A DNA stretch of 64,000 bases from Candidatus Doudnabacteria bacterium. GTDB lineage: Bacteria; Patescibacteriota; Doudnabacteria; UBA920. The stretch lies in contig CAVYGQ010000001.1 in assembly GCA_963768175.1 (NCBI GenBank), forward strand, positions 840,717 through 904,716, in the 5' to 3' direction. Shown one piece after another: positions 5,213 through 64,000 of this stretch; within the stretch, counting starts at the first letter, position 1; every line of letters begins with the position of its first letter. The position numbers were made by a program, and so were the translations under genes. The notes under the pieces were generated by a model. It did no database searches, was not told the DNA's origin, and saw only the letters and a list, made by a program, of their open reading frames with translations.

Positions 5213-6199
5213 TTATAGCCTGCTAACTATTTTTGCCACGTTTCCATACATAATGCCGTAAATTTCATCATCCGTTAGTCCTGCTATTTCCGAGAGCTGT
5301 TCCGCAATAACCGACAGTTTTCCAATCTCATCAAACTCTTCAAAGAGATGTTGGGCGTCAAGCCCGCCGAAATCGGTCCCGATTGCCGAATATTCTGTTG
5401 AACCGGTTATATCACCGGCTTGTTTGTATGTTTCTATATAATTTTTGAAAGTTGGGAAAAAAGGATTTGCTGGCGTGAACCCGACCACTCCGCCGCGCTT
5501 GGCGATTTCTTTAAGTAATTCGGGAGTGATTAACCGCTGTTTTTCCGAACCCAGGCCGGTGTGGGTGGTGACAATTTTATTATAGTTTCGTACGCGCTCC
5601 AAAATATCGGCAGTAGTTTTGTGGTTGGCATGGGCGGTGTCTATTATCATTTTCAGCTCAACAAGCCGGTCAATTACTTTTTTTCCAAGGTCGGTCAAGC
5701 CCCTGTTTGGATCGCCTGACGAACCTCCGCCAAGCAGGTTGTCGTGGGAGTAGATTGGCCCAACTGACCTGACGCCGCGCGCATACAATTCGTCAGCTAT
5801 ATCGGGCGCAGTAACAATATCCCCGCCTTCTAAATGCAGGATGATTTGTTCTTGGCTGTAAGGCTGATTTTGCAAGCGTAAGTCTTGCGGTCGTGTAAGT
5901 ACTTTAAAGTCTTCGGTTGATTGGTAGTAATCGATCAACCTATTATATTCGTTGCGCACGCCTGCCAATACAACTTCATTTCCGGTTAAGGCGGCTTGTT
6001 TTATCTCCGTATTTGCCCGGCGGTAGATGGTGGCAAAATGCAAGTCTAGCAGTCTTAAGCCTTCGCGCGGCAATTGTTTGCCTCGTTCTTTGGCATGGGC
6101 AAGTTCGGGGTTGTTTAAAATTTGGCACAGCCAGGGATTGAGCCGGTCTTGGTGGAAATCCGCAGCGCGAAAATTTTTACCTTCCTTGGTGTTTAACAT
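5213..6199 (-). CDS. Membrane dipeptidase, peptidase M19 (renal dipeptidase) family
   Basis: An M19-like region (GLTDLGKKVIDRLVELKMIIDTAHA) and a 328 aa length. Confidence 0.6.
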   Translation of the reverse strand: MLNTKEGKNFRAADFHQDRLNPWLCQILNNPELAHAKERGKQLPREGLRLLDLHFATIYRRANTEIKQAALTGNEVVLAGVRNEYNRLIDYYQSTEDFKVLTRPQDLRLQNQPYSQEQIILHLEGGDIVTAPDIADELYARGVRSVGPIYSHDNLLGGGSSGDPNRGLTDLGKKVIDRLVELKMIIDTAHANHKTTADILERVRNYNKIVTTHTGLGSEKQRLITPELLKEIAKRGGVVGFTPANPFFPTFKNYIETYKQAGDITGSTEYSAIGTDFGGLDAQHLFEEFDEIGKLSVIAEQLSEIAGLTDDEIYGIMYGNVAKIVSRL

Positions 6200-6202
6200 A
6201 AG

Positions 6203-7141
6203 CTATTTGCGGTTAAGGGATCTATAGAAACCTAAAAATAGATTATTTAAATTTTGGCCTTGGAATTTGGCGCTGGCAGTCGCCACGCTTGCCGCGCTAA
6301 AACCCGGGTGTACATCTACTTCTATGAGAAAAAGCTTGTTGCCTTTAATTAGAATATTGGATTGGGAAAAAGTGCGGCAACCAAGCGCTTGGTGGGCGAT
6401 TTTGCTAATCTGTTTGACTTTTTTGATAATTTTGGGATTTAAGTGTGCCGGGAATTCTTTTAAAATCGCAGCCTTTCCATCTTTGATTTTTTTGGAAAGT
6501 AGGTCGCCGAGGACGCCGACCGGATCAAAAATTTTTGGTTCCCGGTTTCCAACAACAAGGCATGTTATTTCATAAGTCTTATTTATGTACTGTTCGGCAA
6601 TCATAGCCGAAACAGTGCCAATGTGCTTGTTGACTATTTTAATGCAGTTTTTTTGGCTTTTTGCAATAAACAATCCTCGGCTGTCAGTGCCGGCAACGTC
6701 TTTAATAATACATGGATAACCAATTCTGCTGACAGCTTTTAGTATAGTAGCCCTGGAATTTGTCCATAAGACTTTATCAATAAAAATGTCTTTTGCTACA
6801 GGTAAATGGCATTGCCGGAAAAAGGTTTTGGATAAAAATTTATTGGTTCCCAGAAAGGTTGCCAACGGCCCGGAGCCAAAGTACGGGATATTATAAAGTT
6901 CCAAAAAAGATTCTATGTCCGCTTCATTGCCCCGGCCATAAGCATTTTTTAAGACCACGCCGACTTGTTTGCGTTTAAAATCCTTTAATAATTCATCTGC
7001 CCCGGTGCGGCCGAAGTCATAAGCCTTAATCCGGAAATTTTTTAACTCGCGCTTCAAATCCAAAAGCTGTCTTTGATTTGCTTGAGCTTGCCCGGGATTG
7101 CCGTAAATAACGACGCCTAATTTTATAAGTTTGTTTTTCAT
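6203..7141 (-). CDS. ATP-grasp ligase, D-Ala-D-Ala ligase-like paralog
   Basis: An ATP-grasp fold with similarity to the Ddl C-terminal region. The ATGA overlap with the upstream 487-aa ORF indicates translational coupling. Confidence 0.6.
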   Translation of the reverse strand: MKNKLIKLGVVIYGNPGQAQANQRQLLDLKRELKNFRIKAYDFGRTGADELLKDFKRKQVGVVLKNAYGRGNEADIESFLELYNIPYFGSGPLATFLGTNKFLSKTFFRQCHLPVAKDIFIDKVLWTNSRATILKAVSRIGYPCIIKDVAGTDSRGLFIAKSQKNCIKIVNKHIGTVSAMIAEQYINKTYEITCLVVGNREPKIFDPVGVLGDLLSKKIKDGKAAILKEFPAHLNPKIIKKVKQISKIAHQALGCRTFSQSNILIKGNKLFLIEVDVHPGFSAASVATASAKFQGQNLNNLFLGFYRSLNRK

Positions 7142-8601
7142 AAATTGTTAAAGGTAATGCTGGCTAAATCGTTGAAATTTATGGTTTTCTCGAGTTTTTT
7201 TGCGGGCGGGATATATTTGGACGAGATATAGTCGTAAATATCGGCGGCGCCGGTTTTAAAGAAGTCGCCATATTTCATACTCACCGCCGCTTCAAGATAC
7301 TTTGGACTTAAAGGCCCGTCACAAAATATATCATGCGCGTATAAAGCCTTAAGCTGTCCGTCAAAGCGCCTGAAAAAAAGCGCCATACCGGCAACCAGCC
7401 CGGAGGTGTCAATGTTTTTAATAAGCGGGATTTCTTCCATAAAGGCGGAATGTTCAAGCGTTTTTAGCCATGCATTTTTAAACAGGCTTAAATAAATTGC
7501 GGACCCGTAGCCGGTTAGCGGACGCACGCCGGAGTAAAAATTTAACATTGAAAAAATCGAAAACAGGCTCGGGTAAATTTCTTTTTCCGCTAGCTTCTCC
7601 ATTATAGAACCCTTGTCCATATGGATTTTAAGATGTTCAAATCTGCTGTCGGCGGGAATCAGATATTCTCCTTGAAGGTACATGCGTAAAGAACGAGGCT
7701 GCCCGGGGTACTTTCTCCAGAAAAAGTGGGTGCCCTTTCCTTCTCTTTCCCGCCAGGTGATTATAATTCCTCGAAAGTTTTCCAGTATTTGATCCCGGAA
7801 AGGCTTATCAAAATAAGCGGCGGTTATAAAATTGTCTTCTTTTAACAGTTCAAGCAGACATTGGGTAGTAAGTTCTTCCTGGGTTATATAGAGCAAGTCC
7901 GGCAAAGTGGGGCGGGAGGCCTCGGGAAACAACAGTGGCCAGGTTTCTTTCACAATGACGGTAATTTGGTCGGCGTAGTCTTTGCATCTGTCAAAATTGA
8001 TTGATGAAATAAAGGTGTTAAAATCTTGTAAGAACTTTTGTTCTCCTTTAGTGAATTCATGCCATTGGTGGCTGATTTTAAGTCTGGCGACAAAATCAAA
8101 ATCTCTTTTTGTAATATAATAAGAGCAATGTTCCCGTTCGGCTACGCTAAAAAGGGGAACGTGCTTTCCATGCAGACAAAAGCCGCTTTTCCCGAAATAA
8201 TTATTGGGGGGCACATCGCCGCTGGAGACGACGATGGTGGCGTCCGCTTTTTCCTTTTGGAAAAATTTATTGACGCTGCTTATAACGTTGGCAGACAATA
8301 AAAACGGGTGGTTTAGTATCTGGTGATGGTCGGCAATATTGAAAGCAAGGGAATTTGCGAAGTTAATTTTTAATTTTTCTTTTGCATTGCCGCCGAACAA
8401 CCCTTCAAATTTACGGGTGATTTTATTTTTTAGCAGCTCCTGCCGTTTAAGGTGTAGAGCCGGAGTTTTAAAATTATATAGCCCGTCCGAAAACTCCCTG
8501 ATGCTTAATGGCATTTCAAAATATTCCCGGTAAAGCGGCGCATAACGGGTAATTTGGGAGATTATTTGGTCGCGCTCTTTTAAAATTTTAGCTATTTCCA
8601 T
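7138..8601 (-). CDS. Hypothetical protein of 487 aa with no recognised domain
   Basis: A long uninterrupted ORF, coupled to the ATP-grasp gene by a 4-nt overlap. Confidence 0.5.
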   Translation of the reverse strand: MEIAKILKERDQIISQITRYAPLYREYFEMPLSIREFSDGLYNFKTPALHLKRQELLKNKITRKFEGLFGGNAKEKLKINFANSLAFNIADHHQILNHPFLLSANVISSVNKFFQKEKADATIVVSSGDVPPNNYFGKSGFCLHGKHVPLFSVAEREHCSYYITKRDFDFVARLKISHQWHEFTKGEQKFLQDFNTFISSINFDRCKDYADQITVIVKETWPLLFPEASRPTLPDLLYITQEELTTQCLLELLKEDNFITAAYFDKPFRDQILENFRGIIITWREREGKGTHFFWRKYPGQPRSLRMYLQGEYLIPADSRFEHLKIHMDKGSIMEKLAEKEIYPSLFSIFSMLNFYSGVRPLTGYGSAIYLSLFKNAWLKTLEHSAFMEEIPLIKNIDTSGLVAGMALFFRRFDGQLKALYAHDIFCDGPLSPKYLEAAVSMKYGDFFKTGAADIYDYISSKYIPPAKKLEKTINFNDLASITFNNL

Positions 8602-8681
8602 AGGTATTTAAACTTTACTCCAATTCAAAAAATCCCGCCAGAATACGGTAAAATGCCAAAATTGTGTTTTAAAGTAATATT

Positions 8682-9434
8682 TTATTTTGTTTCCGCCTTA
8701 TCCCACATATACCAAAACCATTTACGATAGCTGTCGGCCAAATCCTTACTGTGCAAAATAAAGAATACAACATTATCAGAAAGCCTAAATAGTTCCAGGC
8801 CGGTGTAGGTAACTACATAGTCGCCAAAGACATGAAAAATGGAATTTGTGGAATATTCTTTTGGCAGAAAACGATATTTTAAAAGTCCCGGCCAGGTTTT
8901 GGCAAAATCTGGCGCCTGGGTTTTGATTTCATGATCAAATAATTGGTGAAATTTAATTTTTTTCCTGGCGGCTTCTTTAAAAAACGCCTGCCTGCTGGCT
9001 TCCAGTTTCGGTTCAAACCAGCCGCCTTTGGCCCCTACAACAAAATTTTCCTCACCAACGCGCAAAACATCCCGCCAAAGATTTTTTTGCCCTTCCAAGC
9101 CCCGATAAATATAGGCTTCTTCCGGGGCAATGCGACGGGTGAATTTCTTTTTTAAATCAGGAAGTATTTTTCCTAGGCTGGTTTGTTTTTCCGCCAGTAA
9201 TTCCGTCAGCTTGTCTGGGTCAACTGCATTGTAGAGATTTTCCGAAGATGAAAAAATCTCAAAGACTAAGCCTTTGTCTATAAGCCGGGCAATGGCATCA
9301 TAGGCATTGCGGCGGTGAATTTTGGCACTAACAGCTATCTTGCTAATACCCGCTTCCCCTGTTTCCACAAGGGATTCGTAAATTTTGGCTTCATTTGGCG
9401 AAAGCCCTAAGCTTAGGAATAAATCTTGGTTCAT
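8682..9434 (-). CDS. TrmB-family transcriptional regulator (paralog 1)
   Basis: N-terminal wHTH (LGLSPNEAKIYESLVETGEAGISKIAVSAKIHRRNAYDAIARLIDKGLV) with a TrmB-like C-terminal domain. Confidence 0.8.
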   Translation of the reverse strand: MNQDLFLSLGLSPNEAKIYESLVETGEAGISKIAVSAKIHRRNAYDAIARLIDKGLVFEIFSSSENLYNAVDPDKLTELLAEKQTSLGKILPDLKKKFTRRIAPEEAYIYRGLEGQKNLWRDVLRVGEENFVVGAKGGWFEPKLEASRQAFFKEAARKKIKFHQLFDHEIKTQAPDFAKTWPGLLKYRFLPKEYSTNSIFHVFGDYVVTYTGLELFRLSDNVVFFILHSKDLADSYRKWFWYMWDKAETK

Positions 9435-9569
9435 ATAATGTGGTGATGATTGCTACCATGTGGCGCTATTGGCCACTCAATATAGATAATATATGCTTAT
9501 CTGTCAACCGTCAACCCCGCCGCTCGCGAGCGGCGGGTCAAGAAACGGCTCTGATAGAAGGAGGAATAC

Positions 9570-9894
9570 AATGCTTGATCAAGAGTTGAAGAGTTCTGCG
9601 ATTGCCCAAAACCCTCTCTTGGAACCGATGCTCGGGCGGAGTTCGTATACCTGCACGATTTTCGTGATTGATCTCCTTGGGGGGAAATCGGATAACTTTA
9701 GGATTTCAGACGAAGTTCTGGAGCAAATTCGAAAGAGGGTGGAGGGGGCGGAGGATGCGACCTACTACATCATCCACTTCATCCCCAGAGACTTTGAAGT
9801 TAGTAGTCTTGAGGACTTGCCTGAGTCCGAGAAAAAGAAGGTTCGCGAAGCGCTTAACCAAGCACCCTTTCCTGTTTGTATCGTTTGGGTTTAG
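9570..9894 (+). CDS. Hypothetical protein of 108 aa in a GC-rich island
   Basis: An SD (gaaggagga) lies 6 nt upstream of the ATG. GC content is far above the flanking sequence. Confidence 0.5.
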
Positions 9895-9967
9895 GCTAAC
9901 TATCGTGTGAGGTCGCTAGTACGAGCGAAGCTTGGGCGAGCTAGTGGGAGATTAAGAAAGGGGTAAT

Positions 9968-10552
9968 ATGAAAGCGGTACTGTTTTTGGCCATTTGTCTC
10001 ACCATCCCCGCTTCGGCCCAGGACTGGCAGACGCGGGACAGCCTGCACGTGCAGGCGGACGTCAGCAAAAATTGGTTCGTCTCCGGCTGGTCGGTGACCA
10101 ACCTGCGGACCGAAACCCCCAACAACACCAACCTGTTCGCAGGCGCAGGCTACCGCGGCAAAAACTGGTGGCTGGAGGCCATAGTACAGCACCAGTGGAA
10201 CACTAAGGCTAACCAGTGGATGCTGGACTTCCGGTTCAACAAGCAGACCGAACGGTGGCGCTTGTATGCCGAGGTCTCGCCTTTTCTGATCAAGAAGGCC
10301 TTCTACGAGTACGTTATTGTAGAACGGCGGACTTGGAAAGGCTTCTCGTTCGGCGCGGAGACCGAGAACACGCACCAGATTGGGCCGGACATGATCGCAA
10401 TAGGCCCTAGGGTTAGTCGCAAGCTCGGCCGGTTTGCTGGCTTTGATGCATCGGCCGCTATTGCGGTTCGGCTTAGCCCTGTCGGTGGGCATACTGAACC
10501 GCGGTTGTCCCTGACGTTCAACCGCCGGCTTTATTTGAGAGACCGCAAGTAG
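9968..10552 (+). CDS. Secreted protein with a signal peptide, possibly beta-barrel-like; GC-rich
   Basis: N-terminus MKAVLFLAICLTIPASAQD, followed by alternating hydrophobic/polar beta-like segments rich in W, Y and R. An SD (aagggg) is present. GC is about 60% against about 42% for the host. Confidence 0.5.
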   Translation: MKAVLFLAICLTIPASAQDWQTRDSLHVQADVSKNWFVSGWSVTNLRTETPNNTNLFAGAGYRGKNWWLEAIVQHQWNTKANQWMLDFRFNKQTERWRLYAEVSPFLIKKAFYEYVIVERRTWKGFSFGAETENTHQIGPDMIAIGPRVSRKLGRFAGFDASAAIAVRLSPVGGHTEPRLSLTFNRRLYLRDRK

Positions 10553-10622
10553 CGCGCGGTCTCTCTTTTTTATTTGTTTTTATGCTATAATAAGCAGTAT
10601 ATTATTAAAACAAAAAATTACT

Positions 10623-11357
10623 ATGCAAGATAAGTTTGGCGGAAAAGAACCAAAGTATTACGATATTTTTACTGGTTTGTTTGTGGCAATATTGCTGATT
10701 TCAGAAATTACCTCTACAAAAATTGTGTCTTTGGGGTTTATCCAAACAGCAGGCGCCGCGGTGCTGTTCCCTATCTCTTACATTTTTAGCGATATTTTAA
10801 CCGAAGTTTACGGCTACGCCAGAGCCAGGCGCGTCATGTGGATCGGCTTTGCGTCTTTGGTATTGCTTTCAGCAATCTTAATTATTGTCCAGTATCTGCC
10901 GCCGGCGCCCTCCTGGCACAACCAGGCCGCTTACGACGTGATTTTGGGTGTTGTGCCCAGAATTTCCTTTGCCAGCGTGATAGCTTATTGGGCCGGCGGT
11001 TTTGCCAACGATTTAGTCTTGGCCAAAATGAAGCTTTTGACCAAGGGCAAATATTTGTGGACGCGCACCGTGGGCTCCACCGTGGTTGGCCAGGCCGTGG
11101 ACACTTTTTTGTTCCTTAGCATCGCGTTTTATGGTACCTTGCCCAACGCGGTTATTTTACAAATTATCTTCAGCTTTTATTTGTTTAAGTGCGGTTATGA
11201 AGTCGTAGCCACCCCGATTACTTATTTTGTGGTCAATAAATTAAAAAAGGCCGAAGGCCTGGATGTGTTTGATTACCATACCAATTTCAACCCTTTCAAG
11301 TTCAAGGTTGAAAATTCGGTAGACCAAGGGGCATCCTTGGACCCGGAACAATCTTAG
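10623..11357 (+). CDS. yhhQ: Queuosine precursor transporter (YhhQ/DUF165 family)
   Basis: A multi-TM protein carrying the SDILTEVYGYARARRV motif typical of DUF165/Vut transporters. Confidence 0.7.
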   Translation: MQDKFGGKEPKYYDIFTGLFVAILLISEITSTKIVSLGFIQTAGAAVLFPISYIFSDILTEVYGYARARRVMWIGFASLVLLSAILIIVQYLPPAPSWHNQAAYDVILGVVPRISFASVIAYWAGGFANDLVLAKMKLLTKGKYLWTRTVGSTVVGQAVDTFLFLSIAFYGTLPNAVILQIIFSFYLFKCGYEVVATPITYFVVNKLKKAEGLDVFDYHTNFNPFKFKVENSVDQGASLDPEQS

Positions 11358-11375
11358 ACCAAGGATGCCCCTTGG
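11324..11375. terminator. Perfect 17-bp inverted repeat (CCAAGGGGCATCCTTGG / CCAAGGATGCCCCTTGG) between convergent genes
   Basis: Seen directly in the sequence. A related copy lies at 57743-57781 after rnhB. Confidence 0.7.
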
Positions 11376-11377
11376 TA

Positions 11378-12154
11378 CTATTGGTGTTTCAAAAACGGTT
11401 TTAATATTGGCGCGTATAAATCTTTTTTCGGCGGAATAACCAATTTGTGATATAAATCCTTTTTGGTAAACTTAACAAATTTCGCCCCTCTTAGCACCAC
11501 CACCGGCGTTTGCTCGCCGCCTTCGCCCATTATCAGCGCTCCCAAGTCCGCCAGCGTGTCCACCAAATTGCGCTGGGTGTATTTTAATTTGCGTTTAAAA
11601 ATATCTTTTTGTCCGCGGTAATCAAACAGTGGCTTTAACCCCCAAAAGCCGATGCTTACCCCTTGCGTTCCCCATCTTAGCGGCGTGGTGCGGCTGTCCA
11701 CGGCCACGGCCGCCAGTTTTTTTGTGCCAAATTTTGTTTGGTATCTTTTGACAATTTGTTTAAGTAATAAATTAACATTCTTCGGCCAAAGAATAAAATA
11801 ACCATTGCCGTTGCTTTCATCTATGCCGGCCGAAGGTATAAGCGTGTAGTCTTTAATGGTCAAAATAATTTCCGAATCGCCAATCATGTAAGCCGGCAAG
11901 CTAAAATCGGCTTCTTTTTTTACAAGCTGGTGTTTTTGGTTGTAGCGTGCCGATTTATCCGCCGTCGCTGAAGCTTTGGCGGACAAGTCGGCCTTCTCGA
12001 TTTTCACGCATCTGCCCTGATGAATCGCCAAAATCTTGGAAGCAATCAACAAAACATCGCCTTCTTTAAGCTTAGGCAGGCGTTTGTCCAGCTCTTGCAA
12101 AATGTCGTCCTTTGGCGGCAGGAACTTGCGGGTTTTTATGGGAATGAATTGCAT
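11378..12154 (-). CDS. CofE-like (F420-0:gamma-glutamyl ligase family) protein
   Basis: IPSAGIDESN and LLIASKILAIHQG regions resemble the F420_ligase domain. The family assignment is tentative. Confidence 0.45.
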   Translation of the reverse strand: MQFIPIKTRKFLPPKDDILQELDKRLPKLKEGDVLLIASKILAIHQGRCVKIEKADLSAKASATADKSARYNQKHQLVKKEADFSLPAYMIGDSEIILTIKDYTLIPSAGIDESNGNGYFILWPKNVNLLLKQIVKRYQTKFGTKKLAAVAVDSRTTPLRWGTQGVSIGFWGLKPLFDYRGQKDIFKRKLKYTQRNLVDTLADLGALIMGEGGEQTPVVVLRGAKFVKFTKKDLYHKLVIPPKKDLYAPILKPFLKHQ

Positions 12155-12795: not shown

Positions 12796-12872
12796 GGGCT
12801 AGTAGCTCAGCTGGTTAGAGCACGTCTCTTATAAGGACGGGGTCGATGGTCCGAATCCATCCTAGCCCACCA
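12796..12872 (+). tRNA. tRNA-Ile (anticodon TAT)
   Basis: Cloverleaf with acceptor GGGCTAG/CTAGCCC, anticodon loop CTTATAA, a GATGG/CCATC T-arm and an encoded CCA. Confidence 0.6.
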
Positions 12873-27496: not shown

Positions 27497-28132
27497 TCAG
27501 GCCGTTGGGAACAAGTAGGCCAAGATCTCATCGTGGGTAGCTTGGCCAATCTTCCCTGCCGACAGGTATAGTCCTAGCAGTTCTGATATCCGCCAAGCTA
27601 CGTAGCCTTTATAGTTCGCATTGGCGAGCTCGGCCATGCCGCCCTGCTCCCGGTCCACGAGCATGAAGATACCCGCGACATGGAGACGTTCGGCTTCTAA
27701 CACCTTAATGGACGCCAGTTTGGAATCCGCTTTGGTGATCAGGTCATCGAAGAGAGCCACGCGCTGGCCAGGCTGGTAAGCGCCGTCAATGTTGGCGCCA
27801 GAGCCGTGTGTCTTCATCTCTCGTGGAGTGATCATTGGTATCGTGGTAAAACTGGAGATTAGCGTAACCAGCGGAGTGGCGGCGGTCGGTACGTCGGCAA
27901 CCAAGTCACAGGTCACGCCTTCCATCATTTCTGTTAGGAGCCATGCGGTGTCCACCAGCAGCGTTGGAAACGAGCGGAGCAGGCGGAAGTTCAGGTAGAA
28001 TGGTGAGAGCGGGGCGTCGGGGTTTTTTTCGTGTAACTTGAGACGAAACCCTTTGCCTTGAGGCGACCTGGACTTGTCCAGGAAGATGCCGGCGTCAAAC
28101 CACGCCAGCGCGAGAGTTTCTTTGTCGATCAT
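27497..28132 (-). CDS. pyrE: Orotate phosphoribosyltransferase, second copy, GC-rich (xenolog)
   Basis: PRTase motif VALFDDLITKADS and FRLKLHEKNPDAPLSPFYLNFR. The start is taken at the internal MIDKE, because the upstream part overlaps pyrF. Confidence 0.7.
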   Translation of the reverse strand: MIDKETLALAWFDAGIFLDKSRSPQGKGFRLKLHEKNPDAPLSPFYLNFRLLRSFPTLLVDTAWLLTEMMEGVTCDLVADVPTAATPLVTLISSFTTIPMITPREMKTHGSGANIDGAYQPGQRVALFDDLITKADSKLASIKVLEAERLHVAGIFMLVDREQGGMAELANANYKGYVAWRISELLGLYLSAGKIGQATHDEILAYLFPTA

Positions 28133-28136
28133 GGTG

Positions 28137-28937
28137 TTAGTCCTGGCAGGCCTCGATGATGTTGTCGATGATGAGCTCCACCGCCGCCAGAGGATCCTGG
28201 GCGGCAGTAATGTCGCGGCCAACTACAATGCCGTTAGCGCCGCCGCTGATGGAGTTTCCTGGCGTTGCCACTGCCTTCTGCTCTTGCTTTGCGGAGCCAG
28301 GCAGTCGGACGCCAGGGGTGTAAATCAGGAAGTCCGGCCCGCAGGCTTCGCGGATAGCGGCGACTTCCAAAGGTGAGGCGATGACACCGTCGCAGCCGCA
28401 TTCCTGGGCCAGCTTGGCGTATCGAACAACGAGCTTGAGCCGATATGGCTCCTCGACCCCTTCTGGTTTCAGGCCAAGATCCACCAGGTCTTCCTCGCCG
28501 AGGGTGGTCAAGAGAGTTACGGCCAGCAGGAGAGGCTTGCGTTGCAGGTCGAGCTTAGCGGCGGTGGTGTCGATGGCTTCGCGGGCGGCTTTCATAGCCG
28601 CCTTGCCGGCAAAGGCGTGCATGTTGAACATAAGCGGTCGGAGACGGGTCAGGGCTGTTGCCGCGCCCTTGACCGTATTGCCTATATCGGCGAGTTTGCA
28701 GTCCATGAAGTCGGTGCCGACAAGCTCGCCAAACAGGTCCCGCAGGTCCTCGAGCGCCGTAAGCGCATCATCGTAGTCGGCGGTCACCAGAGTGGTAAAC
28801 ACCGAAAGTATGAACTCAAAGCCGATCTTGAACCCGCGCACCTTGCCTTTCAGCATGGTGACGAGCCCTGTGGCTTTGATCACATTGTCTACATCCAAGG
28901 CCACGATAATCCGTGACCCCGCGTCTTTTCGAGTCAT
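28137..28937 (-). CDS. pyrF: Orotidine 5'-phosphate decarboxylase, second copy, GC-rich (xenolog)
   Basis: IIVALDV start and the DxKxxDIxNT motif (MDCKLADIGNTV). Confidence 0.75.
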   Translation of the reverse strand: MTRKDAGSRIIVALDVDNVIKATGLVTMLKGKVRGFKIGFEFILSVFTTLVTADYDDALTALEDLRDLFGELVGTDFMDCKLADIGNTVKGAATALTRLRPLMFNMHAFAGKAAMKAAREAIDTTAAKLDLQRKPLLLAVTLLTTLGEEDLVDLGLKPEGVEEPYRLKLVVRYAKLAQECGCDGVIASPLEVAAIREACGPDFLIYTPGVRLPGSAKQEQKAVATPGNSISGGANGIVVGRDITAAQDPLAAVELIIDNIIEACQD

Positions 28938-35750: not shown

Positions 35751-36482
35751 TTATATGGTATTCCAAAAATGGTTGAGAATTATGCTTACGGTTTCATATA
35801 TATCGGCGCTTTCAACCACCAGCCCCAGCGAGCTGTCCCCTTCCTGGGTAATAAAAGCCACTTTTCCGTTATAGGCAAACATTTCATTTTTAAACGGAAA
35901 ATTTTGGGCTGGTATTAACTTGGTTTGCCTTAAAGCGAATTTGTCTTTTGATTGTAAATCTTGATAAAAGGGAATATCAGGGGCGATTATTTTTACAAAA
36001 TTTCCTTTTTTTACCCTTCTTTCCACGTATTCTTCGCCCCAATAGTCTCGGATTTTTTCATCAGGCAGTTTTGTGGAAAGTACCTCTATATAGTTGGCAT
36101 GCTTGGATAAAATATCTTCATAAATTTCCTTAATGCCCTCAAGCCCTTGATATATCCTGACTGATGGTTTTTTGCCGGCATGGCTCTGGATAGCCAAAAG
36201 CTGTCCCATGATGTTATCTAAGGCATTCTCTTTTTGTTTAATCAATGGAAAAATATTCTGTGGGTCTTCCACGATGTATATTTTGCGTTTGCCTTTCAAA
36301 ATAGTTTTAATCAATCCTTTTTCTTTTAAGCTGTCTACGAGTTCATAAACCGTGGCGCGTTTTAATTTGGCATTATTAACCAGTTCCTGCATAGTCGCGG
36401 GACCGGTTTGCAGGCCGGCCAAGTAAAGAGCGGACTCTTTTTCGCTTAGTCCGATTTTTTGCAGGTTTTGTTCTAAATTCAT
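35751..36482 (-). CDS. TrmB-family transcriptional regulator (paralog 2)
   Basis: wHTH LGLSEKESALYLAGLQTGPATMQELVNNAKLKRATVYELVDSLKEKGLI. Confidence 0.8.
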   Translation of the reverse strand: MNLEQNLQKIGLSEKESALYLAGLQTGPATMQELVNNAKLKRATVYELVDSLKEKGLIKTILKGKRKIYIVEDPQNIFPLIKQKENALDNIMGQLLAIQSHAGKKPSVRIYQGLEGIKEIYEDILSKHANYIEVLSTKLPDEKIRDYWGEEYVERRVKKGNFVKIIAPDIPFYQDLQSKDKFALRQTKLIPAQNFPFKNEMFAYNGKVAFITQEGDSSLGLVVESADIYETVSIILNHFWNTI

Positions 36483-36631
36483 AAAGTATCGGTAAAACCG
36501 ACGATATTTTAATTACAATATAACCTTATTTTAAAGGATATTTTTAATATTGTCAATAATATATATCAAGATTATTGATATATTTAACAAATTAGTGTAT
36601 AGTGTTTGGTCAACCTTAAGGAGGGTTGGGT

Positions 36632-37277
36632 TATGAGAATATTAGTCGTTGACGACGAGCCCATCAATTTGCTCGCCGCGCAGCAGACTTTGGTTGGGCA
36701 CGAGTTAGTGCTCGTTGACGGTTACGATAAGGCAACGGTACTTTTGGAGCCGGCCGCATACGAAGAAGAGATCACAAAACTCCAGGGAGGGGAAGGCCAC
36801 CGCATTAGCTACCGGCAAGTGCAAGAGATGTTACGCAAGTCTACCAAAGTGTTTGATGCCGTCTTAACTGACCTGCTCATGCCCCCAGGCAAGAGGGGGC
36901 AATCACCGCGGTCTCGCGAAACGTTCCAGAACCTCCCATTTCCTTCGGGGGTGATGCTCGCCCTGCACGCGATCCGGCAAGGCGCAAAGTATGTCGCTGT
37001 GTTCACAAGCGGGATCAACCATCACCACAATCCCGCGGTCTGGATGATGGAGCCGCTCAGGTGGGGCTGGAACGCTACGCCGCAGAAGTTCTTGGTCAAC
37101 GGAGCCATTTTGGGATTCTTTGATGAGTGCGATGGCGGTCGCGTCCCTGTAGATGGCACTGTGTGTCAGGAATGCAATGGCAAAGGTTGCCTAACATATT
37201 GTCATGAAACTGGCAAGCTTTTTGCCAAGAACTGGGGAAGGGTTCTTGAGGAGCTCATCAAGCACCACAACAGCTAG
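36632..37277 (+). CDS. Orphan REC (receiver)-domain protein with a Cys-rich C-terminus; GC-rich
   Basis: MRILVVDDEP..DAVLTDLLMP..VAVFTS gives REC beta1, beta3 and beta4 signatures, and CQECNGKGCLTYCH follows at the C-terminus. A strong SD (aaggaggg) is present. GC is about 58%. Confidence 0.65.
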
Positions 37278-39417: not shown

Positions 39418-40174
39418 TCAAGACATTTTAGCGCTTGGACTTGCGTCCCAAATTGTCTCAAACAACTTAATTTCTCCAGCCACGATATCCGGGCTTTCAA
39501 TAATTACCGTTACCAATTCTTTTTTGGAACTGAAGATTGCCACTTTATTTCCGTAAATTAGTTTTGAACTGTTATATAAATGGTTTTCCGGCAAATATTT
39601 TACTTCCCTTAGAAGTTCGGCGTGATTGGCTGTTAAAAAAGATTCCGGCATCTGGGATTTAAAATATAAAGCTTTAAAGTTTATACGTTTTTTCAATCTG
39701 GTTGGGATATAGTAGTTTAAATCCCAGATCCTCGCCGATGACTTTATGGATTTCGCTAATTGAGCCAATGTGCCTGACGGTGGAATTGAAAGTTTTGAGG
39801 GAATCCTCCGAGGCAATAAAGTATCCTTCTTTGCCTTCGTAGTAAGTAATCTGCGGTTTCAGATCTGGTTTTTGCGCCAGACTGTTTAATTGCGGCAAGA
39901 TACTTTTTAAGTCGTCTAATTCTTTTTCTGTTTTAGATGCCAAAATATGCGGCGGTGTGGCCACAAATTTTAACCCGCTCCGCATTTTAAAACTGCCCAT
40001 TAAACCCTTTTTCTCCAAAGCCTGGAAAATTACATAAGCCGAAGTTCGTTTTAGTTGCGCTTCCAGCGCCAATTCCGACATCCCCGCCTCACCAAGTTTA
40101 AGCGATGCCAAATACAAAGCCACTTCGCCGTCTTCCAGCCCTAATTCTTTAAGAGTTTGTTTAATGTCTTGCAT
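39418..40174 (-). pseudogene. TrmB-family regulator (paralog 3), frameshifted into two overlapping ORFs
   Basis: ORF 39674-40174 carries the N-terminal wHTH (LGLEDGEVALYLASLKLGEAGMSELA). ORF 39418-39816, in another frame, carries the TrmB C-terminal region (KVAIFSS..VTVIIESPDIVAGEIKLFETIW), which is homologous to paralog 2. Confidence 0.6.
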
Positions 40175-40432
40175 ATTAAATACAAATAAATTGATGCCTG
40201 AGCTTGTCGAAGGCTCAATTTATTTGTCCCTTCGACTTTGCTCAGGGGACAAATAAATTTAAATTTGACGTTTTTTACGTCAACAGTATATCAAATCTAA
40301 TAAAAATAAGCAAATAAAGGCAAAATATATAATAAATTATGCCACAATTATTGACGTTATGTCAATTTTGATGTATTGTTATCGGTCAAAACAAAAACAC
40401 CTGACGAGGTTAACAACGCAAAGGAGGTAGTT

Positions 40433-40876
40433 ATGAATATTTTGGTTGTAGAAGACGATCCGAAGCATATGAAGGAGGCTGTTGAGGTCATTCAAGCCGC
40501 CGGACACGAAGTGATACAGGCAACTGATATGTATAGAGCCAGGGAGTATCTCTACGATGACCGCCCCGACGGAGTAATTACTGACCTTTTTATTCCGGAT
40601 GGTGCGGGAGGAGTAAATGAAGATGCGGATCAGCCGCGAGGCCTAGGAATTGTCTTAATGGCGCAGCAGGAAGGCATTCCTTGCATCATCTGCACCGCAG
40701 GATATCACCACGGATCCAAGTACAACTGGATCTGCGGACTCGGGCGGAGGTTGCACTGGCCACCGATGGTAGATCAGCTTCAGGATCGGCACAACTACGA
40801 GGTGGAAAGCCAGTCGAAAGACTGGCAAGAAGCGCTCGACACCCTGGTCAAGATCATAGTGGCCAAGGGATATTAA
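40433..40876 (+). CDS. Orphan REC-domain protein, paralog of 36632-37277; GC-rich
   Basis: MNILVVEDDP..DGVITDLFIP..CIICTAGYHHG. A strong SD (aaaggaggt) is present. It is divergent from TrmB paralog 3. Confidence 0.65.
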   Translation: MNILVVEDDPKHMKEAVEVIQAAGHEVIQATDMYRAREYLYDDRPDGVITDLFIPDGAGGVNEDADQPRGLGIVLMAQQEGIPCIICTAGYHHGSKYNWICGLGRRLHWPPMVDQLQDRHNYEVESQSKDWQEALDTLVKIIVAKGY

Positions 40877-63130: not shown

Positions 63131-63285
63131 AGTTTCCTCCTTGGGGATTGAGCTTTATAATCGTCAAAAAATGAAAAATAGTCAATAAAAATCGACTATT
63201 TATTTAGTGGATATAAATTTTATTAGTAAACATTGATTAAATATGTTATATTTTTGTTGTCAGAAAGCAATGACAAATATTGTTT

Positions 63286-64000
63286 ATGGAAGAAGAATTG
63301 CAAAAATTAGGCTTAAGTGAGCACGAAGCCAAAATATATTTGGCGGCTTTGAGTTTGGGTCCTTCATCGGCGGCCCAAATATCGACGCAGACTAGTATAA
63401 AGCGGCCCACTGTTTATTTGGCTTTGGACAGTTTAATTAAGCAAGGATTAGTTTTAGAAAATTTTGCCGGGAAAAAGAGGTTGTTTGAGGCTGAGAAGCC
63501 TCAAAAGTTAGAAAAGCTGACCAAACGAATGAGGCGGCAAGTTATTGATGCGGAAATTTTGTTAGAAAGCGTATTGCCGGGACTAATTAAACTTCCTAAA
63601 CAATACTCACAAGAGCCGAAAGTAAGTTTTTATTCAGGAGAAGAAGGTTTAAAAAATATTGCGCTTGAAATTTCAGCTTGCTCATCTTCCTGGTATGCTT
63701 TTGGCTCCGGCGCAAAAATATTGGAAAAACTTGCAAAATTCAAAAGGATGGACATACTTTACGATTCTTGGGATATACGCAGTAGCCCGAGCAGGCCGAA
63801 AATTTATATAATTACAGACGCAGGAGTTTTTTCTTTGGGAAAAGAATGGGAAAAAAACAAAACTCCCTGGCGGGAAGTAAAGATTTTACCCGGGATCATT
63901 GGTGTCGGCTCCGGACTTATTATTTATGAAGATAAAGTGGCAGTATTGAGTCTTGAAAATAAACCTTTTGTTGCGGTAATTAAGAGCAAAGAGGTTGTGG
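63286..64000 (+). CDS. TrmB-family transcriptional regulator (paralog 4), running off the window end
   Basis: MEEELQKLGLSEHEAKIYLAALSLGPSSAAQISTQTSIKRPTVYLALDSLIKQGLV. It is not in the ORF track because no stop falls within the window. Confidence 0.75.
   Translation, partial: MEEELQKLGLSEHEAKIYLAALSLGPSSAAQISTQTSIKRPTVYLALDSLIKQGLVLENFAGKKRLFEAEKPQKLEKLTKRMRRQVIDAEILLESVLPGLIKLPKQYSQEPKVSFYSGEEGLKNIALEISACSSSWYAFGSGAKILEKLAKFKRMDILYDSWDIRSSPSRPKIYIITDAGVFSLGKEWEKNKTPWREVKILPGIIGVGSGLIIYEDKVAVLSLENKPFVAVIKSKEVV

What the first reader, a model, noticed from the sequence alone, without database searches (positions are those of the whole stretch)
8682..10552. TrmB paralog 1 is divergently paired with a 1.1-kb GC-rich island encoding a 108-aa protein and a signal-peptide beta-rich protein
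Composition changes sharply at about 9500, from about 40% to about 60% GC, and returns to baseline at about 10560. The boundary is marked by the hairpin cccgccgctcgcgagcggcggg. The second ORF (9968-10552) has a typical Sec signal peptide and an amphipathic beta-strand-like pattern rich in aromatic residues, ending in RLYLRDRK. This resembles Gram-negative outer-membrane beta-barrels, which would be unexpected if the host is a monoderm or CPR-like cell. This is the same layout as the TrmB-REC modules: a native-composition TrmB regulator next to foreign-composition cargo.
Basis: partly seen in the sequence, partly recalled or inferred. Interest (0 to 1): 0.7.

Follow-up and report, generated by a model that had tools for sequence, protein, structure and literature searches.

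The report
Porin-like barrel gene in monoderm CPR bacteria
The GC-rich stretch is not foreign DNA but a conserved regulator-plus-target gene pair of Patescibacteria (CPR) whose target is a secreted protein predicted to fold like an outer-membrane porin barrel, which is unexpected because these bacteria are described as having no outer membrane.

Summary
Window 9500-10552 is GC-rich in two steps (0.50, then 0.58, against 0.44), the 22-nt palindrome is real, and ORF 9968-10552 has a signal peptide and is all-beta.

The "foreign cargo" reading does not hold. The TrmB-family regulator and the 194-aa gene form a divergent pair in every CPR lineage sampled except one, and all TrmB-linked loci share an invariant operator-like block (TGTGGTG...TTGGCCACTC). 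The barrel gene is GC-richer than its surroundings in 12 of 13 loci, so GC richness is a family trait. A second assembly is identical across both junctions.

ORF107 is a lineage-specific first cistron. It sits in a slot that holds unrelated genes in other lineages.

My best reading is a TrmB-gated, Sec-exported, porin-like transmembrane barrel. Its membrane is unknown: host, an unrecognised outer layer, or its own. It is a new, undescribed family.

The parts
8682..9434 (-). TrmB-family transcriptional regulator, 250 aa: an N-terminal winged helix-turn-helix, a long helix, and a C-terminal PLD-like domain (the same domain order as TrmBL2).
9439..9478 (.). Conserved operator-like block: TGTGGTG-N8-GCTACCA-N2-TGGCG-N4-TTGGCCACTC. 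It contains inverted TGGT/ACCA and GTGGC/GCCAC half-sites. It covers the start of the trmB transcript and the putative -35 (TTGGCC) of the rightward promoter.
   Evidence: TTGGCCACTC occurs exactly once, in this intergenic position and orientation, in every TrmB-linked locus. That is 18 of 20 loci; it is absent only from L007 (no TrmB) and the E. coli control. The window has a single exact copy. The alignment of 10 lineages is. The half-sites never vary, which fits a protein-binding site rather than an RNA helix (inference).
9479..9514 (.). Overlapping back-to-back promoters. Leftward (trmB): -35 TTGACA 9507-9502 with -10 TATATT 9484-9479, or alternatively TTGACG 9514-9509 with TATTAT 9491-9486. 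Rightward (inferred): TTGGCC 9469-9474, a 15-nt spacer, then TATATGCT 9490-9497.
   Evidence: The leftward promoters match 11/12 and 10/12 consensus positions. GTCAA, the reverse complement of TTGAC, is conserved in the lineages. The rightward promoter was not found by the scan. It is inferred from the fixed 15-nt spacing between TTGGCC and TATAnnCT in all 10 lineages.
9516..9537 (+). Perfect 22-nt GC-rich palindrome. It most likely forms a hairpin in the 5' leader of the ORF107-ORF194 mRNA, upstream of the Shine-Dalgarno GAAGGAGG (9558-9565).
   Evidence: RNA 9500-9575 folds at -29.7 kcal/mol, z = -3.26, and leaves the Shine-Dalgarno unpaired. The hairpin is present in L013 and L012, where G-C is replaced by A-T on both arms. 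It is absent or different in the other lineages.
9571..9894 (+). ORF107, a lineage-specific first cistron of unknown function with no signal peptide. It uses the leader and Shine-Dalgarno that drive the barrel gene directly in other lineages.
   Evidence: The word-indexed search of 5.8 billion proteins returned only itself, yet L013 and L014 hold a 91%-identical copy of the same length. dN/dS is 0.26 and dS is 0.16, much lower than in its neighbours. In L010, L011 and L012 the same leader runs straight into the barrel ATG. Other lineages hold unrelated ORFs in this slot. No Pfam, NCBIfam, PHROGs or PADLOC hit.
9968..10552 (+). ORF194: a Sec signal peptide (aa 1-17; cleavage predicted after ASA) followed by a ~177-aa mature protein predicted to be a small transmembrane-type beta-barrel.
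10537..10571 (+). Intrinsic terminator: a 10-bp stem (GAGAGACCGC/GCGGTCTCTC) with the stop codon in its loop, followed by a T-run. It marks the right-hand end of the GC-rich unit.
   Evidence: Fold at -19 kcal/mol. GC drops to 0.257 immediately after it.

Best explanation
The 1.1-kb GC-rich stretch is one transcription unit of a conserved Patescibacteria (CPR) module. It is not an island.

Regulation. A strongly conserved TrmB-family regulator (8682-9434) is transcribed leftward. An operon is transcribed rightward from promoters that overlap back to back and share an invariant operator-like block (9439-9478). I infer that the regulator binds this block, represses both itself and the operon, and releases them when its conserved C-terminal domain binds a ligand.

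The operon. It consists of a leader with a hairpin, a lineage-specific 107-aa cistron, the 194-aa gene and an intrinsic terminator. The 194-aa product is exported by Sec. It is predicted to fold into a small barrel with a hydrophobic, variable outside and a conserved lumen lined by charged residues. Acidic residues lie on strands 4-8 and basic residues on strands 9-11 and 1-3. This is a porin-like transmembrane beta-barrel with 11 strands, closed by a parallel seam.

Function. I propose that it forms a hydrophilic channel or anchor in a lipid layer outside the cytoplasmic membrane. Which layer is unresolved. It could be the membrane of the host cell to which these epibionts attach, or an unrecognised outer lipid layer of the CPR cell.

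Shown: the gene structures, conservation, synteny, operator conservation, fold prediction, strand-face pattern, covariation and family-wide GC excess.
Inferred: TrmB binding and repression, the rightward promoter, membrane insertion, channel function and location.
For: Conserved pair:
- TrmB(-)|barrel(+) occurs in the window, L001, L002-4/L008, L006, L009-L015, L017, L018 and L020.
- It also occurs in a distant relative, L021.
- All three TrmB-ortholog contexts that I chose only for contig length carried a barrel gene.
- In an operator-based metagenome scan, 5 of 10 informative true hits had a barrel gene downstream, and 3 had transporter genes.

Operator: TTGGCCACTC is exact in all TrmB-linked loci; the alignment is. 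The trmB promoter matches 11/12 consensus positions.

Fold. Strand-face pattern. Covariation: the top couplings are hairpin contacts plus 21-179 (z 6.2). Coupled positions are anticorrelated for 9 of 10 neighbouring strand pairs, but correlated (rho +0.96, p 0.0005) for strands 1 and 11.

Purifying selection: dN/dS 0.17.

GC: the barrel gene exceeds the rest of its locus in 12 of 13 loci. An identical second assembly spans both junctions.

Taxonomy: every organism label on the records that carry the family or the TrmB ortholog names a CPR/Patescibacteria group. Patescibacteria are described as monoderm (PMC11665869; bioRxiv 10.1101/2021.05.31.446380).
Against: - No experiment exists. Membrane insertion is inferred from a predicted model whose coordinates I could not inspect.
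- No outer membrane or BAM machinery is known in CPR, so there is no known way to insert such a barrel. I could not search the rest of this 949-kb genome.
- The window protein lacks the terminal aromatic residue of classical outer-membrane proteins. It ends ...FNRRLYLRDRK.
- Many covarying pairs cross the lumen (23-100, 102-179, 72-181, 45-76). The barrel may therefore be plugged by its own side chains rather than open.
- The rightward promoter is weak by consensus and the scan did not report it.
- The TrmB model is of low confidence (pLDDT 63).
- In some lineages the same TrmB and operator face transporter genes instead of a barrel gene, and L007 has a barrel gene without TrmB. The coupling is therefore frequent, not obligatory.
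- The cause of the GC excess is unexplained.
Confidence: 0.55

Rival explanations
1. One reading: a recently acquired foreign island (horizontal transfer from a GC-rich diderm donor) inserted next to a native TrmB regulator.
For: GC3 is 0.75 against a window mean of 0.50. Both G- and C-ending codons are enriched, as in GC-rich genomes. The fold is typical of diderm bacteria. dS differs about ten-fold between adjacent genes, so recombination does occur in this region.
Against: The same gene lies at the same place with the same regulator and operator in lineages whose barrel proteins are only 25-84% identical. The GC excess is shared by 12 of 13 loci. No relative with a non-CPR organism label was found in 5.8 billion clustered proteins, 1.84 billion representatives, or one genome for each of 185,579 species. 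No integrase, transposase or tRNA lies at the borders. The borders coincide with a promoter and a terminator.
Confidence: 0.04
2. Chimeric assembly: the GC-rich segment belongs to another organism and was joined in by the assembler.
For: Only the sharp composition change.
Against: A Logan assembly of run ERR10755942 is identical over window 6968-10906, across both junctions. Two JGI metagenomes and about ten further lineages show the same gene order. The conserved leader reads continuously from TrmB into the GC-rich part.
Confidence: 0.01
3. The protein is a secreted or cell-wall-associated barrel that is never embedded in a lipid bilayer. Examples would be an oligomer that buries its hydrophobic surface, or a barrel whose outside binds hydrophobic wall polymers or scavenged lipids. 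On this view the porin resemblance is only geometric.
For: CPR are described as monoderm and no barrel-insertion machinery is known in them. The window protein has no terminal aromatic residue. Dense cross-lumen couplings suggest a filled interior. CPR must scavenge lipids (PMC11665869).
Confidence: 0.15
4. A version of the main reading that specifies location: the barrel is an effector. It is released from the CPR cell and inserts spontaneously into the membrane of the host bacterium at the contact site, where it makes a conduit for nutrients. TrmB keeps it off until a host-derived signal is sensed.
For: The epibiotic lifestyle and unknown nutrient-uptake route of Patescibacteria (PMC11665869). 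Tight local regulation by a conserved repressor-like protein. In some lineages the same regulator faces uptake transporter genes. An odd strand number puts the two termini on opposite sides, which is not expected for BAM-assembled proteins. It is established knowledge that some porins insert into foreign membranes (Neisseria PorB).
Against: There is no direct evidence. No targeting or receptor-binding domain is present. The hosts of these lineages are unknown. The family is absent from viral contigs and shows no link to secretion-system genes in the loci read.
Confidence: 0.25
5. A second version that specifies location: the barrel is a resident protein of an outer lipid layer of the CPR cell itself. 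It would then be a relic of, or evidence for, a diderm-like envelope in these lineages.
For: The family is old and widespread within CPR. Distant members end in ...R-x-Y-h-h-h-N-F-COOH. The terminal Phe is present in 26 of 34 of them, which resembles the C-terminal signal of BAM-dependent proteins. Current phylogenies place CPR among Terrabacteria that lost the outer membrane.
Against: Published descriptions call CPR monoderm and report loss of porins. I could not test for BamA, Lpt or LPS genes. An odd strand number is not known for BAM substrates (established knowledge).
Confidence: 0.12

Closest known systems
KdgM/NanC family of small monomeric outer-membrane porins (Pfam PF06178; PDB 4pr7, 4fqe, 2wjr, 8xua)
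   Different: There is no sequence relationship. The window protein has no PF06178 hit, and hhalign of the family against E. coli NanC aligns only the signal peptide. The model has 11 strands rather than 12. There is no terminal aromatic residue. The organism belongs to a phylum described as monoderm.
VDAC/Tom40 (mitochondrial 19-stranded barrels)
   Same: An odd number of strands, closed by a parallel pairing of the first and last strand. For VDAC this is established knowledge. For this protein it rests. VDAC chains are the top Foldseek hits by E-value (5e-4).
   Different: 11 strands against 19. TM-scores are only about 0.2. There is no N-terminal helix domain in the mature protein. The organism is bacterial, and there is no sequence similarity.
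Archaeal TrmB, TrmBL1 and TrmBL2 regulators (PF01978; PDB 3qph, 2f5t, 5bpd)
   Different: NCBIfam equivalog models score far below their cut-offs: 23 bits against 500. The second half of the TrmB sugar-binding domain is missing. The operator (TGG.../...CCA half-sites, TTGGCCACTC) is unlike the published TACT-N-AGTA or TATCAC-N5-GTGATA sites (established knowledge). The ligand is unknown. The organism is a bacterium of the CPR.
ompA-type 5' leader hairpins that stabilise porin mRNAs
   Same: A stable stem-loop near the 5' end of the leader, upstream of a free Shine-Dalgarno.
   Different: This is only an analogy. The hairpin is present in 3 of 10 lineages, and no half-life data exist.

Membership tests
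KdgM/NanC porin family (PF06178) | Sequence match to the family profile | tested here: not met
   Pfam has no hit at E<=0.1, whereas E. coli NanC hits PF06178 at 1.2e-28. hhalign of A1 against NanC gives probability 3% and aligns only the signal peptide.
KdgM/NanC porin family (PF06178) | 12-stranded antiparallel barrel | tested here: not met
Classical BAM-dependent outer-membrane proteins | C-terminal beta-signal ending in an aromatic residue (usually Phe) | tested here: not met
   The window protein ends ...LTFNRRLYLRDRK. The position that is Phe in relatives (NRRF) is Leu here, followed by a basic tail. Distant members do end in Phe: 26 of 34 weak hits and 16 of 70 strong hits.
Classical BAM-dependent outer-membrane proteins | Sec signal peptide; hydrophobic, variable lipid-facing side and polar lumen; aromatic residues at the strand ends | tested here: met
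   The signal peptide is read from the sequence and from alignment A1. The strand faces alternate in 10 of 11 strands, with lower entropy on the polar face.
Classical BAM-dependent outer-membrane proteins | The host cell has an outer membrane and an Omp85/BamA insertase | not testable with these tools
   Only 64 kb of the 949-kb genome is available. The literature describes Patescibacteria as monoderm.
TrmB family regulators (PF01978) | N-terminal TrmB-type winged helix-turn-helix | tested here: met
   PF01978, 52.1 bits against a cut-off of 25.6, residues 8-73.
TrmB family regulators (sugar-sensing TrmB in the strict sense) | Complete C-terminal sugar-binding domain; equivalog-level similarity | tested here: not met
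   NCBIfam TrmB equivalogs score 12-23 bits against cut-offs of 500-650. The protein is 250 aa against about 340. Only the PLD-like subdomain is matched by fold, on a model with pLDDT 63-89 in that part.
Genomic island / recent horizontal transfer | Absent from the same place in related genomes; borders marked by mobility genes, a tRNA or repeats; composition unlike that of its homologs' hosts | tested here: not met
   It is present at the same place in relatives. There is no mobility gene or tRNA at the borders. Homologs are GC-rich relative to their own genomes in 12 of 13 loci.
Odd-stranded barrels with a parallel seam (VDAC/Tom40 type) | The first and last strands pair in parallel | tested here: inconclusive
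   Supported by the strand count and by covariation: 21-179 at z 6.2, and rho +0.96 for 7 coupled pairs. However, only about 107 sequences were available and the coordinates were not inspected.

The most novel reading that the evidence does not exclude
Patescibacteria, described as monoderm, widely encode their own family of true transmembrane beta-barrels. These barrels have an odd number of strands (11) and a VDAC-like parallel seam, and they would be assembled without BAM under the control of a dedicated, highly conserved TrmB-type regulator. This barrel would either be inserted into the host's membrane as the long-sought nutrient conduit of these epibionts, or mark a cryptic outer lipid layer, a relic of diderm ancestry.
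Probability: 0.3. Interest if true: 0.9.

Novelty: new variant of a known kind. Interest (0 to 1): 0.72.

Why it matters
How ultrasmall CPR epibionts take nutrients from their hosts, and what their envelope is made of, are open questions (PMC11665869).

A conserved, tightly regulated, exported porin-like barrel in a phylum thought to have one membrane gives a concrete protein to test. It is small (177 aa mature) and easy to express, refold and record in bilayers. Its regulator has a defined 40-bp candidate operator.

If the barrel is a real membrane protein, three things follow:
- It challenges the view that monomeric transmembrane beta-barrels are confined to diderm envelopes and organelles.
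- It would add the first odd-stranded bacterial barrel.
- It bears on the debate about loss of the outer membrane in Terrabacteria.

The work also corrects a tempting misreading. A sharp local GC rise is here a heritable property of a gene family and of a regulator-controlled transcription unit. It is not a sign of foreign DNA.

Tried and rejected
- Pfam, NCBIfam, PHROGs, PADLOC and a PDB sequence search with the family profile found nothing for ORF194 or ORF107.
- Pfam on ten distant relatives found nothing.
- Rfam on 8500-11500 gave only sub-threshold chance hits. The osmY sRNA hit at 9516-9573 scored 20 bits against a cut-off of 46.9.
- The AFDB fold libraries were not available.
- No viral contig carries the family.
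- The small ORFs between TrmB and the barrel gene are not homologous between lineages. ORF107 against the L006 104-aa ORF gives E 0.2.
- The long antisense ORF 9941-10492 (183 aa) is not kept open in homologs, where it shrinks to 92-117 aa. It is a by-product of GC richness.
- I rejected expression-linked codon bias as the cause of the high GC3. In L006, rplT and infC have GC3 of 0.40 and 0.48, against 0.71 for the barrel gene.
- The metagenome scan with the operator pattern was mostly noise. Of 80 loci, 68 were chance matches, as expected for 17 specified bases, and only 12 were true.
- The word-indexed search missed the 91%-identical ORF107 homolog in L013, so 'orphan' was wrong.
- The terminator scan missed the terminator at 10537-10571.
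- Literature searches found no earlier description of this family or of the TrmB pairing in CPR. The library is incomplete.
Full report

Yes. The window averages 0.44 GC. GC is 0.434 for 9000-9499, 0.504 for 9500-9967, 0.578 for 9968-10552 and 0.430 for 10553-11052. It falls to 0.257 in the 70 nt after the stop codon. The rise is therefore two-step, not a single jump from 40% to 60%.

The 585-nt ORF window has z = +3.1 and is the second-highest GC peak of the window. Its GC3 of 0.75 is the highest of 61 ORFs (mean 0.496, sd 0.082). The value expected from its amino acids and the local codon usage is 0.566.

The palindrome CCCGCCGCTCG/CGAGCGGCGGG lies at 9516-9537. It is perfect and unique in the window.

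- TrmB at 8682-9434(-), PF01978, E 5.9e-14.
- A 107-aa ORF at 9571-9894.
- A 194-aa ORF at 9968-10552 that starts with a textbook Sec signal peptide (MKAVLFLAICLTIPASA|QDW).

**2. It is neither a misassembly nor a foreign island.**

A Logan assembly of run ERR10755942 is identical to window 6968-10906 across both junctions.

More importantly, the 194-aa protein has homologs, and every organism label on the records that carry them names a CPR/Patescibacteria group (Patescibacteria, Doudnabacteria, and MAGs labelled Saccharibacteria). There are 26 clusters at 90% identity and 98 representatives at 50%.

In these genomes the gene sits in the same place as here: TrmB(-) | barrel(+) | Vut_1 | F420-ligase-like | gyrA.

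The barrel gene is GC-richer than the rest of its locus in 12 of 13 loci, by 0.07-0.15. The neighbouring TrmB gene is at or below background in all of them. GC richness is thus a heritable trait of the gene family, not a mark of recent import.

**3. The regulator and its operator.**

The TrmB protein belongs to an exceptionally conserved orthologous group. There are 826 clusters at E<1e-20, and the top 120 are all at least 65% identical. Their sources name them as Doudnabacteria, Paceibacterota, Microgenomates and Patescibacteria.

I picked three ortholog contexts only because their contigs were long. Each has a 190-197-aa barrel-family gene divergently next to TrmB:
- L017: 49% identity.
- L020: 53% identity.
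- L018 (Microgenomates type): 25% identity, hhalign probability 95.9%, E 5e-9.

A still more distant family member, P0099 in L021, also faces a TrmB-domain gene. The only exception I saw is L007, where a HAD hydrolase gene lies upstream.

The intergenic DNA next to the TrmB start codon is conserved across all these lineages. The pattern is TGTGGTG-N8-GCTACC-N3-TGGYGS-N3-TTGGCCACTC, then TATAnnCT after exactly 15 nt, then GTCAA. The 10-mer TTGGCCACTC is exact and single in every TrmB-linked locus.

On the minus strand, GTCAA reads as the -35 box TTGACA or TTGACG. Together with TATATT or TATTAT it forms a promoter for trmB that matches 10-11 of 12 consensus positions. The conserved block therefore lies at the start of the trmB transcript.

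The fixed spacing between TTGGCC and TATAnnCT suggests an overlapping rightward promoter. This is an inference; the scan did not report it.

The half-sites (TGGT/ACCA, GTGGC/GCCAC) never vary. That fits a protein operator better than an RNA helix. I infer autoregulation and co-regulation of the rightward operon.

**4. The hairpin and ORF107.**

In L010, L011 and L012 the conserved leader and Shine-Dalgarno run straight into the barrel start codon, with a spacer of 96-135 nt. In L012 the leader includes the same hairpin, with G-C replaced by A-T on both arms.

In the window and in L013/L014 the same leader and Shine-Dalgarno drive ORF107, and the barrel gene follows with its own ribosome-binding site. 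ORF107 is therefore a lineage-specific first cistron inserted between the leader and the barrel gene.

Other lineages hold unrelated ORFs in the same slot:
- a membrane ORF (L002),
- a 104-aa ORF (L006),
- a 125-aa ORF plus an XRE-type HTH ORF, as read from its sequence (L009),
- a 165-aa ORF (L015),
- a receiver-domain-like ORF, as read from its sequence (L054),
- a 206-aa ORF (L076).

ORF107 looks like a real gene. It has the same length in L013, is 91% identical, and has dN/dS 0.26. Its dS of 0.16 is far below its neighbours' values of 0.5-1.5. I cannot explain this.

The hairpin lies about 13-35 nt into the inferred leader. RNA 9500-9575 folds at -29.7 kcal/mol (z -3.26) and leaves the Shine-Dalgarno free. 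It is a leader element found in a subset of lineages, not an island border.

The right-hand border of the GC-rich unit is an intrinsic terminator at 10537-10571, with the stop codon in its loop.

**5. What the 194-aa protein is.**

AlphaFold2 with 25 homologs gives pLDDT 90.6 and pTM 0.81. The model has a signal helix followed by 11 strands of 10-15 residues joined by 2-5-residue turns.

Two checks do not depend on the model:
- Strand faces. In 10 of 11 strands one face is hydrophobic and variable and the other is polar and conserved. This is the transmembrane-barrel pattern and the reverse of soluble barrels. The conserved acidic residues (E70, D87, E102, E119, E131, E133) lie on strands 4-8. 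The basic ones (R148, R168, R179, R23, R47, R63) lie on strands 9-11 and 1-3.
- Covariation. A mean-field coupling analysis of 108 family sequences recovers the hairpin contacts (27-41, 129-148, 144-170, 44-54, 72-87). It also gives a contact between strands 1 and 11: 21-179 at z 6.2, the fifth strongest coupling overall. Coupled positions are anticorrelated for 9 of 10 neighbouring strand pairs, as expected for antiparallel hairpins. For strands 1 and 11 they are correlated (rho +0.96, p 0.0005). This indicates a parallel seam, as an 11-strand meander requires.

To my knowledge, bacterial outer-membrane barrels all have even strand numbers, and odd, parallel-seamed barrels are known from VDAC and Tom40.

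Many couplings cross the lumen, so the interior may be narrow or plugged.

**6. Membership.**

There is no sequence link to the KdgM family: no Pfam hit, and hhalign against NanC aligns only the signal peptide.

The window protein lacks a terminal aromatic residue. Distant relatives, however, end in R-x-Y-h-h-h-N-F-COOH, with a terminal Phe in 26 of 34.

The protein therefore resembles a small porin in shape and surface pattern but is not a member of any described family.

**7. How it most likely works.**

A ligand-sensing TrmB-type repressor gates an operon whose conserved product is exported by Sec and folds into a small transmembrane barrel with a charged lumen.

In some lineages the same regulator and operator face ABC or DMT transporter genes instead (L077, L099, L086). 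This fits a role in uptake.

The location is the open point. Patescibacteria are described as monoderm and as having lost porins (PMC11665869; bioRxiv 10.1101/2021.05.31.446380). The options are the host's membrane at the contact site, an unrecognised outer lipid layer, or the cell's own membrane in a closed state. I rank them in that order. None has direct evidence.

**8. What remains unexplained.**

The GC excess extends to the unrelated first cistrons (ORF107; the L006 104-aa ORF; the L054 REC ORF). It is therefore a property of the TrmB-controlled transcription unit.

It is not simple expression-linked codon bias. In L006, rplT and infC have GC3 of 0.40 and 0.48, against 0.71 for the barrel gene.

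GC-biased gene conversion at a recombination hot spot is a candidate that I did not test. The ten-fold dS differences between adjacent genes point that way.

**9. Novelty.**

I found no description of this barrel family, of its pairing with TrmB, or of any transmembrane barrel in CPR in the held literature. That library is incomplete.

I rate it a new variant of a known kind: a transmembrane beta-barrel, but a new family, in an unexpected phylum, with an unusual predicted topology.

Noticed in passing
window 27497-28937 (-): The strongest GC peak of the window (0.60; GC3 0.72). It holds an OMP decarboxylase gene (PF00215) and an overlapping 241-aa ORF that, by my reading of its sequence, looks PyrE-like but has no Pfam hit. 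Several ORFs just downstream also looked, by eye, like nucleotide-metabolism genes. Pyrimidine synthesis genes are unusual in CPR, so this may be a better candidate for acquired DNA than the locus studied here.
   Followed up: partly
window 35751-37277 and 39418-40876; also 63280-64000: The 64 kb hold four TrmB-family paralogs. Two more are divergently paired with genes of raised GC3. One is a 223-aa ORF at 36606-37277 that reads like a receiver domain but has no Pfam hit (GC3 0.65). The other is a PF00072 receiver at 40376-40876 (GC3 0.56). The paralog at 39674-40174 (166 aa) and the overlapping ORF at 39418-39816 look like one TrmB gene split by a frameshift.
   Followed up: partly
window 9571-9894 against L013 889-1212: ORF107 is the best-conserved DNA of the whole locus between two lineages: 94-97% identity, against 80-87% in the barrel gene and 61-80% in Vut_1. 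Its dS is 0.16, against 0.5-1.5 in its neighbours. This points to recent exchange or an extra constraint at the nucleotide level.
   Followed up: partly
loci L002, L006, L009, L015, L054, L076, and window 9571-9894: The position between the TrmB-controlled leader and the barrel gene is a slot that holds a different, unrelated ORF in each lineage. By my reading of their sequences, these include a receiver-domain-like ORF (L054) and an XRE-type HTH ORF (L009). The slot looks like a hot spot for gene capture.
   Followed up: partly
loci L077, L099, L086: The same TrmB ortholog and operator face genes that, by my reading of their sequences, are transporter genes instead of a barrel gene: an ABC substrate-binding protein, permease and ATPase, another binding protein, and an EamA/DMT-like protein.
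   Followed up: partly
proteins P0089-P0122; L018 3411-3983; L021 4001-4711; L070: Distant members of the barrel family end in ...R-x-Y-h-h-h-N-F, with a C-terminal Phe in 26 of 34. This resembles the C-terminal signal of BAM-dependent outer-membrane proteins. The window's subfamily has extended past this point with a basic tail. L021 also carries fumarase and succinate dehydrogenase genes, so it may not be a typical CPR genome.
   Followed up: partly
L013 2579-2588 and 3886-3895 (same in L014): There are two further exact copies of TTGGCCACTC, inside the Vut_1 and gyrA genes of the closest relative. The window has no such extra copies.
   Followed up: no
window 5213-8601 (-): Three genes are present here but absent from the same place in L002/L008: an M19 dipeptidase, a D-Ala-D-Ala-ligase-like ATP-grasp protein, and a 487-aa protein with no family hit. 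They may form a small peptide-modification cassette.
   Followed up: no
window 12796-12872 (+): A tRNA-Ile with anticodon TAT, an uncommon way to read AUA in bacteria.
   Followed up: no
window 9941-10492 (-): A 183-aa ORF runs antisense to nearly the whole barrel gene. It is not kept open in homologs, so it is a by-product of GC richness and not a gene.
   Followed up: yes
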